NCBI GenBank assembly: GCA_951406725.2
Contig: OX597819.1
Coordinates: 15,500,001-15,564,000 of the forward strand
Source: Octopus vulgaris
Taxonomy: Eukaryota
Reading direction: 5' to 3'
DNA length: 64,000 bases
Below the pieces are notes generated by a model. The model was not told where the DNA came from and did not search any database. It was given only the letters and a program-made list of their open reading frames with translations. The position numbers and the translations under genes were made by a program. Below, one piece after another: positions 264 to 25,299 of the stretch; position 1 is the stretch's first letter; each line of letters begins with the position of its first letter.

Positions 264-316
264 TCATCTTCTATTTCTAGACGTTACAAAAGCGGCAAGT
301 CCCCCAACTGCACCAC
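264..316 (-). CDS. C19orf12: C19orf12/Nazo-like copy A, last coding exon (G)GAVGGLAAFVTSRNRR*
   Basis: Polypyrimidine tract and AG acceptor at 317-318. The phase-1 junction with exon 7586-7682 rebuilds GPTGLAVG|GAVGGL, matching the C19orf12 motif GPPGLAVGGAVGGLLG. Confidence 0.75.
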
Positions 317-801
317 CTAAAAAGAGCAAATAAATACAATTATTGAGAAAAATTCTTCGTTGACTATCTTCATGTTAAAGCAAAGTTTCAGGGACCTATG
401 AATATTCCTTTATTATATGAAACCATTTTCTATTAAACGTATTAATATTTCCTTTAATTACAGCTTAACCATCATCATCATCATCATAATTGTTGTTTTA
501 ATGTCCACATTTCTGCTTTGTTGAGGTAGATTTTCAACTTCCAAATGCCTTTCCTGTTCCAATGGCCAGATATATCTTCTCGGAAGATTGGAAATGAGGG
601 ATATTACTAGTATGATGGCCTTGTTTAGTCTGCATCTTTTGCATGAGGTCAAGTGAAAGAGACACAAACACACCAACACAAACACATAAACAACAAGTTT
701 CTTTCAGTCCTATATTTAAGAGATGAGGCATTATGTACATTATTTACATCATTTACATTATTTACGTTTGACAGATATTTGTCCTCGTCTTGTTTGTTGT
801 T

Positions 802-847
802 AACACAACATTTCAGCTGATATACCCTCCAGCTTTCATCAAGTGTC
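802..847 (-). ncRNA. Degenerate minimal hammerhead motif in a Penelope-like repeat (C3 mutated to U)
   Basis: Minus strand reads gacac TTGATGA aagctgg..tcagct GAAA tgtt gtgtt. Same family as the intact-looking copy at 53025. Paralog at ~22237-22282. Confidence 0.35.
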
Positions 848-989
848 TTGGGGAAATTTCGAACGTGGGTTCTCATTCCTAAAGAATTTTTTTACGTTAT
901 TATTATTATTGAGTGAGAGAGCAGTGCATGTCATCGGAGTGACACTGGGGTAAAATATATGAAACCCAAGGGTACACCAGGCACATGCA

Positions 990-2495
990 TCACAACCATG
1001 GATCAGGTAATGAAGGTTACGGAGAGGGTCATAGCCCAACTGATTAGGGAGAGAGTCAGCTTGGATGAGATGCAGTTTGGTTTCATGCCAGGGAAAAGCA
1101 CCACTGATGCCATATTTCTGGTAAGACAGCTGCAGGAGAAATACCTAGCCAAAGATAAGCTCCTGTACCTGGCTTTCGTTGACATGGAGAAAGCCTTCGA
1201 CAAAGTCCTCTGATCCCTTATCTGGTGGTCAATGAGGAAACTAGGGATAGATGAATGATTAGTGAGAGCTGTACGAGCCATGTACAGGGACGCTGAGGGT
1301 TGGTGACGAGTAGAGTGAAGAATTCTGGGTAGAGGTAGGGGTCCACCATGGTTCACTTCTCAGGCCCCCTCCTATTTATCATAGTCCTCCAGGCAATAAC
1401 GGAGGAATTCAAGACAGGATGCCCCTGGGAGCTCCTCTATGCTGATGACCTTGCTCTAATTGCTGAGTCACTATCAGAACTGGAGAAGAAGTTTCAGGTG
1501 TGGAAGCAAGGATTAGAATCGAAGGGCCTTAGTGTCAACCTAGCTAAAACCAAAGTCCTAATAAGTAGGAAGGTTGACAGTTCACAAACGCCTTCAGGTA
1601 GATGGCCCTGCTCGATCTGTAGAAAAACGTAGGTAGAAACTCTATACGATGCACCAAGTGTAAGTTGTGGACACATAAGAGGTGCAGCAATGTCAAAGGA
1701 AGGCTAACTAAGAAAATAGTTTTTGTATGTGGCAGATGCTCAGGAGCAGTAAACACTGAAAATGTGCAGAGACCAACCTCCGCCACATTCCAGGGAGAAA
1801 ACCTAGAAATAGTTGATAGCTTCCGTTACCTAGGTGACCAAGTCAGTAGCGGGGACGGGTGTGCTGAAAGTGTAACTGCTAGAGTAAGAATAGCCTGGGC
1901 AAAGTTCAGGGAGCTCTTACCTCTGCTGGTGACAAAAGGCCTCTCGCTCAGAGTAAAAGGCTGACTGTATGATGCATGTGTACGAACAGCCAGGCTACAT
2001 GGCTGTGAAACATGGGCTGTGACTGCTGACGATATGTGTAAGCTCACAAGAAATGAAGCCAGTATACTCCGATGGATGTATAATGTCAGTGCTCATACTC
2101 GACAGAGTGTAAGTACCTTGAGAGAAAAGTTGGAGCTAAGAAGCATCAGTTGTGGTGTGCAAGAGAGACGTTTGTGCCGGTATGGCCATGTGGCAAGAAT
2201 GGATGAAGATAGTTGTGTGAAAAAGTGCCACACCCTAGCGGATGAGGGATCCTGTGGAAGGGGTAGACCCAGGAAAACCTGGGATGAGGTGGTGAAGCAC
2301 GACCTTCGAACTGTAGGTCTCACCGAGGAAATGACTAGAGACCAAGACCTATGGAAGTATGCTGTGCATGAGAAGACCCAGCAATACTAGTGAGACCATA
2401 ACCTGTGGCCTCTACTTGGGATGTAGCCAGTCCACTTATGCATACCCTTCCTTCTTGGGACACAAAACTCTACTTGTGAAACCTGTTGAGGCAAG
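990..2495 (+). mobile_element. 5'-truncated RTE-clade LINE, degraded RT, in intron of copy A
   Basis: QFGFMPGKSTTDAIF, AFVDMEKAFD, LLYADDL, CxxC..CxxC..HxRC insert, FRYLG, GRGRPRKTW. Contains stops and frameshifts. Confidence 0.92.
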
Positions 2496-2524
2496 TTAGA
2501 AATCAGAATCAAAATCAAAATCAA

Positions 2525-22424: not shown

Positions 22425-23940
22425 TCACAACCATGGATCAGGTAATGAAGGTTACGGAGAGGGTCATAGCCCAACTGATTAAGGAGAAAGTCAGCTTGGA
22501 TGAGATGCAGTTTGGTTTCGTGCCAGCGAAAAGCACCACTGATGCCATATTTCTGGTAAGACAGCTGCAGGAGAAATACCTAGCCAAAGATGAGCTCCTG
22601 TACCTGGCTTTTGTTGACATGAAGAAAGCCTTCGACAGGGTCCCCCGATCCCTTATCTGGTGGTCAATGAGGAAACTAGGGATAGATGAATGATTAGTGA
22701 GAGCTGTACGAGCCATGTACAGGGATGCTGCTAGTAAGGTGAGGGTTGGTGACGAGTACAGTGAAGAATTCTGGGTAGAGGTAGGGGTCCACCAAGGTTC
22801 AGTCCTCAGCCCCCTCCTATTTATCATAGTCCTTCAGGCAATAACGGAGGAATTCAAGACAGGATGCCCCTGGGAGCTCCTATATGCTGATGACCTTGCT
22901 CTAATTGCTGAGTCACTATCAGAACTGGAGGAGAAGTTTCAGGTGTGGAAGCAAGGATTAGAATCAAAGGGCCTTAGAGTCAACCTAGCTAAAACCAAAG
23001 TCCTAAGAAGTAGGAAGGTTGACAAATCACAAACGCCTTCAGGTAGATGGCCCTGCTCGATCTGTAGAAAAGGCGTAGGTAGAAAATCTATAAGATGCAC
23101 CAAGTGTAAGCTATGGACATATAAGAGGTGCAGCAATGTCAAAGGAAAGCTAACTAGGAAAATAGTTTTTGTATGAGGCAGATGCTCAGGAGCAGTAAAC
23201 ACTGAAAATGTGCAGAGACCAACCTCCACCACATTCCAGGGAGAAAAACTAGAAATAGTTGATAGCTTCCGTTACCTAGGTGACCAAGTCAGTAGCGGGA
23301 GCAAGTGTGCTGAAAGTGTAACTGCTAGAGTAAGAATAGCCTGGGCAAAGTTCAGAGAGCTCTTACCTCTGCTGGTGACAAAAGGTCTCCCGCTCAGTGT
23401 AAAAGGCTGACTGTATGACGCATGTGTATGAACAGCCATGCTACATGGCAGTGAAACATGGTCTGTGACTGCTGAGGATATGCGTAAGCTCACAAGAAAT
23501 GAAGCCAGTATGCTCCGATGAATGTGTAATGTCAGTGTTCATACTTGACAGAGTGTAAGTACCTTGAGAGAAAAGTTGGACCTAAGAAGCATCAGTTGTG
23601 GTGTGCAAGAGAGACGTTTGTGCTGGTATGGCCATGTGGCAAGAATGGATGAAGATAGTTGTGTGAAAAAGTGCCACACCCTAGCAGTTGAGGGATCCTG
23701 TGAAAGAGGTTGACCCAGGAAAACCTAGGACGAGGTGGTGAAGCACGACCTTCGAACTTTAGGTCTCACCGAGGAAATGACTAGAGACCAAGACCTATGG
23801 AAGTATGCTGTGCGTGAGAAGACCCAGCAGGACTAGTGAGACCATAACCTGTGGCCTCTACTTGGGATGTAGCCAGTCCACTTATGCATACCCTTCTTTC
23901 TTGGGACACAAAACTCTACTTGTGAAACCTGTTGAGGCAA
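22425..23940 (+). mobile_element. RTE-clade LINE, paralog of 990-2495
   Basis: GVHQGSVLSPLLF, YADD and a zinc-finger-like insert; multiple stops. Confidence 0.92.
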
Positions 23941-24310
23941 GTTAGAAATCAGAATCAAAATCAAAATCGATCAACATCAATGGAAATTGTAGCTGTGATA
24001 CCAGTGCCAGGGGCACGTAAGAGAACCATCCAAATGTGGCCGTTGCCAGCTTGCCTGGCCTCCGTGCTGGTGACACATAAAAATCACCATCCGATCGTGG
24101 CTGTTTGCCAGCCTCGTCTGGTTGGCGTTAGGAAGGGCATCCAGCCATAGAAACATTGCCAGATCAGACTGGGCCTGTTGCAGCCTCCTGGCTTCCCAGA
24201 CCCCAGTTGAACCGTCCAACCCATGCTAGCATGGAAAGCGGACGCTAAACGTTGATGATGATGATGATGTTGATGATGATGATGATCTCATATCAAGATT
24301 TATTTATTTA

Positions 24311-24365
<55 letters not shown>

Positions 24366-25169
24366 TGATGAAGGCTGGCGGGTATATCAACTGAAACATT
24401 GAGTCAACAACAAACAAGACGAGGACAAATATCCATCAAATGTAAATAATGTAAATAAGGTAAATAAAGAGAAATCTGCAATGGCTTGTGATTTGATTAT
24501 TTATATAAAGAATATATACATATATAGGTGCAGGCATGACTGTGCGGTAAGAAGCTTGCTTCCCAACCAGATAGTTCTGGGTTCAGTCACGCTGCATGGC
24601 ACCTCGGGCAAATGTCTTCTACAGGGTGCTCAAACAGTCTCTCCGCAGTGAAATTTTTCATCCTGACTCTCCAAAATGTATTTGGTAGATGGAAACTGAA
24701 AGAAGCCCATCGTATATATATATATATATATATTTCTAACAACGTTCTAACATGAAATATTCCAGAAGGAAGAACAAGCCTACAACTTGGGAAGATGTTT
24801 CTTATGGGCCGAAGCTGGAAACCCTTGGGGCACTTGCTCACATTTCTATTAGGTTGTCATGGTTACAGAATGTTGATAACATAGTAGCAATATATTTATA
24901 TGAAAGGTCTTTGAAAGCTGCATACAAACTAACTCTCTCTCTCATTGTACCCCTCTCTCTTTGTCCTTCTCTTTCTCTCTTTGTCCCCCTCTCTCTCTCA
25001 TGGGAATGTTGCTGAGGAGATAAAACAAAGACAGTAATCTTGAAGCCACATTAATAATGTGAATTGAATTATGACAAACCCAGAAAATATATCAATAGTA
25101 AACAATATGAAACAGCTTCATATGATGTAAAACATTTGCCAAAATGAATATACAATACTGATAACTTAC

Positions 25170-25299
25170 CAACAACAAGACCAGGGGGCCCTAGTAACAT
25201 TCTACCAATAAATGTTGCGATACCAACTATTATCATACCCTTTAAACACTCCTTGACTGTAACTTTCATGTTTCCTTCATCTTCATCGCCTTCAGCCAT
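25170..25299 (-). CDS. C19orf12: C19orf12/Nazo-like copy B, first coding exon MAEGDEDEGNMKVTVKECLKGMIIVGIATFIGRMLLGPPGLVV(G)
   Basis: MKVTVKECLKG resembles human MKAAVKHSGKG. Contains the GPPGL motif, an AG acceptor at 25302-25303 and a GTAAGT donor at 25169. Confidence 0.8.

What the first reader, a model, noticed from the sequence alone, without database searches (positions are those of the whole stretch)
264..25299. Tandem, truncated C19orf12/Nazo-derived microproteins with an apparent diversifying-selection signature
Seen: copy A (7682-7586 + 316-264) encodes 49 aa, MAEEATTVQDMIIVGIATFLGGILLGPTGLAVGGAVGGLAAFVTSRNRR*. Copy B (25299-25170 + 21750-21656) encodes 74 aa ending ...GPPGLVVGGVVGGLAAYGMSCDFKSAPQILRKPPKDKK*. 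Both keep the ATG and splice sites and stop in the last exon, so NMD is not expected. By hand alignment from MIIVG to the stop (~117 nt) I count 13 substitutions, all non-synonymous (L/I, G/R, I/M, T/P, A/V, A/V, F/Y, V/G, T/M, R/K, N/D, R/K, R/K); the last four depend on where the 42-nt gap is placed. One synonymous change lies in codon 2. Coding indels are in frame (21+12 nt in exon 1, 42 nt in exon 2). In contrast, the adjacent ~145 nt of intron differ at ~2 positions, and the post-stop relic by 1 substitution plus a 12-nt indel. Known: C19orf12 is a Gly-zipper membrane protein (MPAN disease gene), and its Drosophila homolog Nazo is a STING/IKKbeta-induced antiviral factor. Inference: a lineage-specific, fast-evolving family of membrane-hairpin microproteins with basic tails, possibly innate-immune effectors, that annotation would miss or call pseudogenes.
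Basis: partly seen in the sequence, partly recalled or inferred. Interest (0 to 1): 0.85.

Follow-up and report, generated by a model that had tools for sequence, protein, structure and literature searches.

The report
Octopus hairpin-only C19orf12 microprotein
Octopus carries a shortened, spliced copy of the neurodegeneration gene C19orf12 that keeps only the membrane hairpin and has the same 74 amino acids in two species, so it is likely a working mini-protein in a family whose young duplicates differ almost only by amino-acid changes, while its tandem twin may be a decaying copy.

Summary
The exons, splice sites and both peptides are as described. They are a ~3%-diverged tandem duplicate of the ortholog of an intact 138-aa O. 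bimaculoides C19orf12 (XP_014772542.1). Both copies share two premature stops (Arg85, Ser126 positions), and no intact ortholog was found in this genome. Copy B is spliced in contigs of two runs and is already annotated: its 74 aa are identical in O. vulgaris and O. sinensis. That points to recent constraint, not ongoing diversification. A's junction was not tested. The A/B selection signal is weaker than claimed: 8 secure changes rather than 13, and 6 of 79 non-coding windows are as divergent. An independent intact pair elsewhere on the chromosome (D/E) repeats the pattern: 14 of 14 differing codons are non-synonymous against 1.4% non-coding divergence (branch test p=0.009). B's stop falls at about human codon 86, among the dominant MPAN truncations. 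Verdict: a fast-evolving octopus C19orf12 family with a likely functional hairpin-only derivative (about 45%) or a transcribed pseudogene (about 33%). An immune role is untested.

The parts
25170..25299 (-). Copy B first coding exon: ATG, acidic N-terminus replacing the ancestral N-helix, first hairpin helix. An AG acceptor lies 2 nt before the ATG.
21656..21750 (-). Copy B last coding exon up to the premature TGA (Arg85 of the O. bimaculoides ortholog); second hairpin helix and basic tail
21494..21655 (-). Copy B post-stop relic, in frame to the ancestral stop, with a second premature stop TAA at 21535-21533; now 3' UTR
   Evidence: X1 contig has 0 differences over 21200-21748
21751..25169 (-). 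Copy B intron (GT-AG, 3419 nt), skipped in contigs of runs X1 and X8
   Evidence: table 5
7586..7682 (-). Copy A first coding exon, with 13+8+12 nt deleted relative to B
264..316 (-). Copy A last coding exon, with a 42-nt deletion, the same TGA and an Arg-rich tail
114..263 (-). Copy A post-stop relic (12-nt deletion; same second stop at 155-153)
25322..25596 (-). Intron block 98% identical to the same position in inverted paralog C; most of it deleted in A; found only in B and C in this genome
29727..29801 (-). Candidate non-coding 5' exon of B (AG...GT bounded; counterpart in A at 12866-12940); not verified by RNA
18912..30240 (.). B duplication unit, homologous to the A unit that runs from about 1.9 kb left of the window to about 13470

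Best explanation
Copy B is a spliced, annotated, two-species-conserved truncation of an octopus C19orf12 gene that likely makes a 74-aa hairpin-only membrane protein, which would sit in the same organelle membranes as its full-length paralogs and likely act on them as a decoy or dominant-negative partner; copy A is a further-deleted tandem duplicate of uncertain status. SHOWN: the ancestral 138-aa gene acquired two stops and a 10-codon N-terminal deletion before the A/B duplication; B is spliced; its protein is identical in O. vulgaris and O. sinensis; young duplicate pairs in the family differ almost only at non-synonymous sites. PREDICTED (AlphaFold, moderate to low confidence): the lost N-helix and C-terminal helices form the soluble domain, and the Gly-rich helical hairpin is what remains. 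INFERRED: translation, membrane insertion, targeting by the newly basic tail (net -2 to +4 over the last 12 residues), interference with paralogs (about 35% given function, by analogy with the untested human dominant-negative hypothesis), and pathogen pressure as the cause of the family's positive selection (about 30%).
For: The junction 21750/25170 is in contigs of X1 (depth 235) and X8 (3.8), 2 of 4 runs laid. B has 0 of 74 aa differences between species. Neutral expectation is 1.6-5.6 non-synonymous changes if species divergence is 1-3% (P0 0.20-0.004; the divergence range is assumed), and intact G differs at 5 of 138. In X1 the one exon-1 variant listed (25249) is synonymous; 517 rows of that table were hidden. 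All 3 invariant glycines are kept. A's coding deletions sum to an intact frame, whereas only 8 of 30 non-coding indels are multiples of 3 (counted from the list). B-lineage changes outnumber O. bimaculoides-lineage changes 14 to 5 before and including the stop, and include three acid-removing or base-adding tail changes. D/E: 14 of 14 differing codons non-synonymous, 16 of 423 coding vs 127 of 9355 non-coding sites; omega>1 p=0.009; A/B core p=0.03. B's stop aligns to about codon 86 of a 141-aa vertebrate homolog, inside the range of human dominant truncations (Met65fs to Ala109fs; PMC12384588 Table 4).
Against: No translation evidence. B has Arg at Gly33, a column at least 90% Gly; the matching human Gly43 carries a recessive disease missense (PMC12384588 Table 3). 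The pre-stop rate (25 of 64) is not significantly above the relic's (13 of 52; Fisher p=0.12), and the relic shows the same lineage skew (7 vs 4), which fits relaxation. Identity between species 2.5 My apart is weak evidence if local divergence is near 1%. The site-model test over 6 paralogs was not significant (M2a vs M1a p=0.22), and deep branches have omega 0.35-0.5. The A/B branch test masked the synonymous codon-2 change, and the codon-model code is my own. The pooled binomial is 0.013-0.071 depending on mutation bias. D/E non-coding divergence (1.36%) is close to published O. vulgaris heterozygosity (1.22%), so D and E could be alleles.
Confidence: 0.45

Rival explanations
1. A and B are transcribed pseudogenes. 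The gene died by nonsense mutation in a birth-and-death family, kept its promoter, was duplicated and is decaying. The amino-acid excess is small-number chance plus patchy gene conversion.
For: Two stops, loss of both ends of the soluble domain, Gly33Arg in B and Pro-to-Thr in A's GPP motif. A's 13+8 frameshift pair. A/B binomial p 0.21-0.44. Pre-stop vs relic rate not different. Conversion is active at this locus (B/C introns 95-98% vs exon 64%). A was not among the 41 proteins found.
Against: B is identical in two species. A's frame is kept. dS in the A/B core is zero, which exon-sparing conversion would not give (B/C has dS about 0.5). Only 2 of 16 coding differences are in a CpG context, vs 61 of 249 non-coding.
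Confidence: 0.33
2. One reading: A and B are both stand-alone antiviral membrane effectors under ongoing diversifying selection.
For: Omega>1 on the A/B and D/E terminal branches. Both copies carry derived changes when compared with the O. bimaculoides ortholog. A-type 3' sequence is in run X8, an exact match to A at the same depth as B. Nazo overexpression lowers viral replication in S2 cells (PMC12384588, passage).
Against: B is static between species. Nothing here bears on induction or antiviral activity. Nazo also has a lipid-droplet role independent of immunity (PMC10883546, passages). X8 is only guessed to be RNA.
Confidence: 0.12
3. The tandem pairs are assembly artefacts, i.e. two haplotypes placed head to tail.
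For: D/E non-coding divergence of 1.36% is near published heterozygosity of 1.22%. A-type and B-type pieces have equal depth in X8.
Against: A/B divergence is 3.2% with many structural differences. Run X19 (organism D) holds gap-free B-type exon pieces and one intron piece with the same mismatch count as A (9 of 198). Even as alleles, D/E would show the non-synonymous excess.
Confidence: 0.07
4. Stop-codon read-through or A-to-I editing (UGA/UAA to UGG) restores a full-length protein from B.
For: The B relic has no frameshift over 53 codons and is 75% identical to the intact ortholog. Extensive recoding in cephalopods is recalled knowledge, not from a call.
Against: The X1 contig shows 0 differences across both stops (contigs drop rare variants). 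Two different stops would have to be bypassed. The homologous residues are Arg and Ser, not Trp or Cys. No Rfam match in 20600-21760.
Confidence: 0.03

Closest known systems
O. bimaculoides C19orf12 homolog XP_014772542.1 (P0002, 138 aa)
   Same: Ortholog: groups with A and B at 99% bootstrap; 39 of 64 pre-stop and 39 of 52 relic positions identical to B.
   Different: Intact; has the N-helix, Arg and Ser at the two stops, an acidic rather than basic segment before Arg85, and Gly at B's Arg33.
XP_029637905.1 (O. sinensis 'protein C19orf12-like') = CAI9723861.1 (O. vulgaris hypothetical protein)
   Same: Exactly copy B's 74-aa product.
   Different: Database prediction only; no description of truncation, relic or selection was found in the papers searched.
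Human C19orf12 and its dominant (AD-MPAN) last-exon truncations
   Same: Gly-zipper hairpin kept, C-terminal domain lost, stop in the last exon at a matching position (about codon 86, by alignment to a 141-aa lizard homolog).
   Different: Human alleles are rare and pathogenic. The octopus truncation is shared by two species, also lacks the N-helix, and coexists with full-length paralogs. The dominant-negative mechanism is a hypothesis in humans too (PMC6625130, PMC12384588).
Drosophila Nazo / CG3740
   Same: Lineage-specific duplication of C19orf12; one copy is STING-induced and antiviral in S2 cells and controls gut lipid droplets.
   Different: An independent duplication limited to Sophophora. 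The two Drosophila homologs in my tree are full length and do not group with the octopus genes. No induction data for octopus.

Membership tests
C19orf12 (PF20721) | Profile score above the curated cut-off | tested here: met
   B 54.2 bits vs cut-off 30. A was tested only as exon 1 (13 bits, below cut-off); its membership rests on 97% DNA identity to B's locus.
C19orf12 (PF20721) | Gly-zipper hydrophobic hairpin | tested here: met
   Invariant G37, G40, G44 kept; G33 replaced by Arg; helices 8-36 and 38-56 in the model, pLDDT about 70 in the core.
C19orf12 (PF20721) | Soluble domain (N-helix plus C-terminal helices) of the ~140-aa protein | tested here: not met
   N-helix region deleted and residues after 84 lost. 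So B is a derivative, not a full member.
C19orf12 (PF20721) | Mitochondria / ER / lipid-droplet localisation | not testable with these tools
   Needs imaging.
Nazo-type antiviral effector | Orthology to Nazo | tested here: inconclusive
   The Drosophila homologs form their own clade (100%) but Nazo itself was not identified in the set, and deep nodes are weak; Nazo is reported as Sophophora-only (PMC10917227).
Nazo-type antiviral effector | STING/IKKbeta induction and restriction of virus | not testable with these tools
   No data.
Functional microprotein | Spliced transcript | tested here: met
   B junction in 2 of 4 runs laid; A junction not tested.
Functional microprotein | Purifying selection on the short ORF | tested here: inconclusive
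   0 of 74 differences between two species; P0 0.004-0.20 under assumed divergence.
Functional microprotein | Translation | not testable with these tools
   No Ribo-seq or proteomics.
Positively selected gene family | dN/dS > 1 on branches or sites | tested here: inconclusive
   Branch tests significant (D/E p=0.009, A/B p=0.03, both p=0.003); site test not (p=0.22); 6 sequences only.

The most novel reading that the evidence does not exclude
In the O. vulgaris complex a natural equivalent of the human dominant MPAN truncation has become fixed and been kept as a hairpin-only regulator or decoy of a positively selected, pathogen-driven C19orf12 family. It would be a natural test of the C19orf12 multimer / dominant-negative hypothesis and of an antiviral role for the family outside insects.
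Probability: 0.15. Interest if true: 0.8.

Novelty: new variant of a known kind. Interest (0 to 1): 0.5.

Why it matters
C19orf12's molecular function is unknown, and the mechanism of dominant MPAN is an untested hypothesis. An expressed, two-species-conserved hairpin-only version beside full-length paralogs offers a natural pair for testing what the hairpin does alone. The amino-acid-only divergence of young octopus duplicates suggests the family is in an evolutionary conflict in cephalopods; I found no report of this in the library searched. If B is only a transcribed pseudogene, what remains is a modest gene-family expansion with a selection signal in D/E.

Tried and rejected
Word-index protein searches with B exon 1 and D exon 2 found nothing; the full HMMER scan and the alignment search did. 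The run search listed no holder on record as RNA; kinds are guesses. A's junction could not be tested because the single read lay was on B; repeat rows crowded its tables (517 variant rows and 997 joints hidden), so stop status in X10 and X19 is unknown. No exon-2 match for copy F was seen in the 57 kb fetched. A scan for an upstream ATG-bearing exon gave one candidate in B (25553), where X1 depth is about 1, so I rejected it. Complex prediction of B with C gave no answer; it is not used as evidence. Fold searches of the full-length model gave no clear match (Foldseek best E 1.8; VIA best Z 6.1). CpG decay was rejected as the cause of the coding excess (2 of 16 in A/B, 0 of 16 in D/E). Nei-Gojobori values near 1 for deep pairs were dropped in favour of ML 0.35-0.5. 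My first use of X19 pieces as a species-divergence estimate (1.8%) is unreliable because some pieces may be A-type. Paper searches for C19orf12 with octopus or cephalopod gave 0; with mollusc+expansion and positive selection+paralog they gave one annelid paper that names the gene once in a list; two searches gave nothing on this family's evolution. Earlier findings: none.
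Full report
OBSERVATION. Joining the stated exons gives exactly the 49-aa and 74-aa products, with GT donors and AG acceptors. A and B lie in a tandem duplication (A unit from about 1.9 kb left of the window to about 13470; B unit 18912-30240) with 249 differences in 7830 aligned non-coding sites, 3.2%.

WHAT IT IS. Searches of the own genome and gene reconstruction give seven copies on contig C6, a lower bound. A and B are here. C is intact, inverted, at 15.466-15.485 Mb, with its two main exons 15-20 kb left of the window. D and E are intact tandem copies at 42.09 and 42.12 Mb. F (23.565 Mb) has a stop in its exon and no exon 2 was seen. G (23.53 Mb) is intact. The ortholog of A/B is O. 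bimaculoides XP_014772542.1, 138 aa (99% bootstrap), with Arg and Ser at the two stops. Searching the genome with it finds no intact counterpart. B's product is already in the databases as CAI9723861.1 (O. vulgaris) and XP_029637905.1 (O. sinensis), one identical sequence. C is CAI9723859.1. A was not among the 41 proteins returned, which is weak evidence.

EXPRESSION. Of 24 runs listed I laid 4 on B; all are contigs and 'RNA' is a guess. The 3419-nt GT-AG intron is skipped in X1 (depth 235) and X8 (3.8), from two studies; no such joint is listed for X10 or X19. X1's contig matches 21200-21748 with no difference, so both stops are present unedited, and it runs 386 letters further. Depth arithmetic suggests exon-1 cover ends near 25304, at the acceptor 2 nt before the ATG, so an upstream non-coding exon is likely (candidate 29801-29727, unverified). 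X8 also holds a 251-nt piece whose mismatch and gap counts equal A's 3' region (19 mismatches, 8-nt gap). A therefore exists outside this assembly and may be transcribed; its junction was not tested.

THE SELECTION CLAIM. Eight differences in 33 codons are secure and all non-synonymous; five more cluster beside the 42-nt deletion. Non-coding divergence is patchy, 0-10 per 100 nt, and 6 of 79 windows of 99 nt reach 8. With the synonymous codon-2 change included, the binomial p is 0.21-0.44 and the resampled rate excess p=0.04. On its own this is weak. The intact D/E pair is an independent test: 14 of 14 differing codons are non-synonymous, 16 of 423 coding vs 127 of 9355 non-coding sites; resampled windows give p=0.014. 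A GY94 branch model that I wrote gives omega>1 for D/E (p=0.009), the A/B core (p=0.03, codon 2 masked) and both (p=0.003). Deep branches are at 0.35-0.5 and the M2a/M1a site test is not significant (p=0.22). The pooled binomial is 0.013-0.071 across mutation-bias settings. Exon-sparing conversion would raise dS, which is near zero in these pairs. CpG decay explains 2 of 16 and 0 of 16 coding differences. With F as outgroup, all 6 D/E differences in 45 exon-1 codons fall on D. Caveat: D/E's 1.36% is close to the 1.22% heterozygosity published for O. vulgaris (10.1101/2023.05.16.540928, passages), so they could be alleles.

B SINCE THE SPECIES SPLIT. The split is dated at 2.5 My and O. bimaculoides at about 34 My (same paper, passages). 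B has 0 of 74 differences between the species; G has 5 of 138. Neutral expectation is 1.6-5.6 for an assumed 1-3% divergence (P0 0.20-0.004). I had no O. sinensis DNA. Against O. bimaculoides, B differs at 25 of 64 pre-stop and 13 of 52 relic positions (p=0.12), vs 15 of 64 for G (p=0.09) and 11 of 52 for C (p=0.045) in the same region. Polarised changes are 14 vs 5 up to and including the first stop (7 ambiguous) and 7 vs 4 in the relic (2 ambiguous). This fits a burst of change, relaxed or adaptive, followed by stasis.

MECHANISM. The full-length model (pLDDT 65; hairpin region under 50) has an N-helix at 5-19 and C-terminal helices at 72-131 around a hairpin at 32-64. B's model keeps two helices, 8-36 and 38-56 (pLDDT 61, pTM 0.31). 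B has lost both ends and gained an acidic start and a basic tail; A ends in an Arg-rich tail straight after the hairpin. All three invariant glycines remain, but Gly33 (at least 90% conserved) is Arg, at a position that carries a recessive human disease missense (PMC12384588, section 25). B's stop maps to about human codon 86 via a 141-aa lizard homolog. Human last-exon truncations in this range cause dominant MPAN, with a proposed but untested dominant-negative mechanism (PMC6625130, passages; PMC12384588, sections 8, 12, 25 and passages). I therefore commit to a hairpin-only decoy or modulator of full-length paralogs as the most likely function if B is translated; that step is analogy only. 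That basic C-tails after a membrane helix direct proteins to the mitochondrial outer membrane is recalled knowledge.

KNOWN SYSTEMS. Nazo is antiviral in S2 cells and STING-induced (PMC12384588 and PMC10917227, passages), controls gut lipid droplets (PMC10883546, passages) and is Sophophora-specific, so 'Nazo-derived' is wrong. PMC9441076 names C19orf12 once in a gene list for annelid species divergence (one passage seen). PMC13093632 (passages) gave no nuclear distance. No supplements were read; those of the genome papers could hold divergence figures that bear on the B test. Searches found no paper on cephalopod C19orf12; the library lacks most subscription journals.

VERDICT. A real feature and a new variant of a known kind. 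Functional hairpin-only B, 0.45; transcribed pseudogene pair, 0.33; twin antiviral effectors, 0.12; assembly artefact, 0.07; read-through, 0.03. Interest 0.5.

Noticed in passing
window 25322-25596 and 24995-25119; G000:C6:15479559-15480209 (L019/L020): B and the inverted paralog C share 98% and 95% identical intron on both sides of exon 1, while the exon is 64% identical (dS about 0.5). This looks like gene conversion that spares the exon.
   Followed up: partly
L022 2356-6510 and L023 (G000:C6:42.09 and 42.12 Mb): Intact C19orf12 pair D/E in a ~29-kb tandem repeat, with 14 of 14 differing codons non-synonymous; no matching protein turned up. It deserves its own study.
   Followed up: partly
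window 29727-29801 and 12866-12940: A candidate 75-nt non-coding exon differs at 7 of 75 sites between A and B while the neighbouring intron differs by about 1-3%; about 4 of the 7 look like CpG decay.
   Followed up: partly
G000:C6:23.52-23.57 Mb (L024, L025, L034): The database model CAI9723918.1 (P0014) appears chimeric: it joins the broken F exon to G and has a different C-terminus from G's genomic frame.
   Followed up: no
window 54281-55244 (-): Pecanex C-terminal exons (PF05041); the gene points towards copy B on the same strand.
   Followed up: no
window 16861-18036 and 37391-38570: Two 96%-identical Tc1/mariner-type transposase copies in inverted orientation, one with a 333-aa open frame.
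   Followed up: no
window 39234-41594: A degenerate 43-45-nt tandem array of about 2.4 kb; not identified.
   Followed up: no
window 32440-36319: Fragments of a retroelement (DUF7047, RT-like); observed only.
   Followed up: no
P0003 (ENA protein, 691 aa): A protein with 7 stretches matching C19orf12 exon 2: possibly a multi-repeat form or a fused gene model.
   Followed up: no
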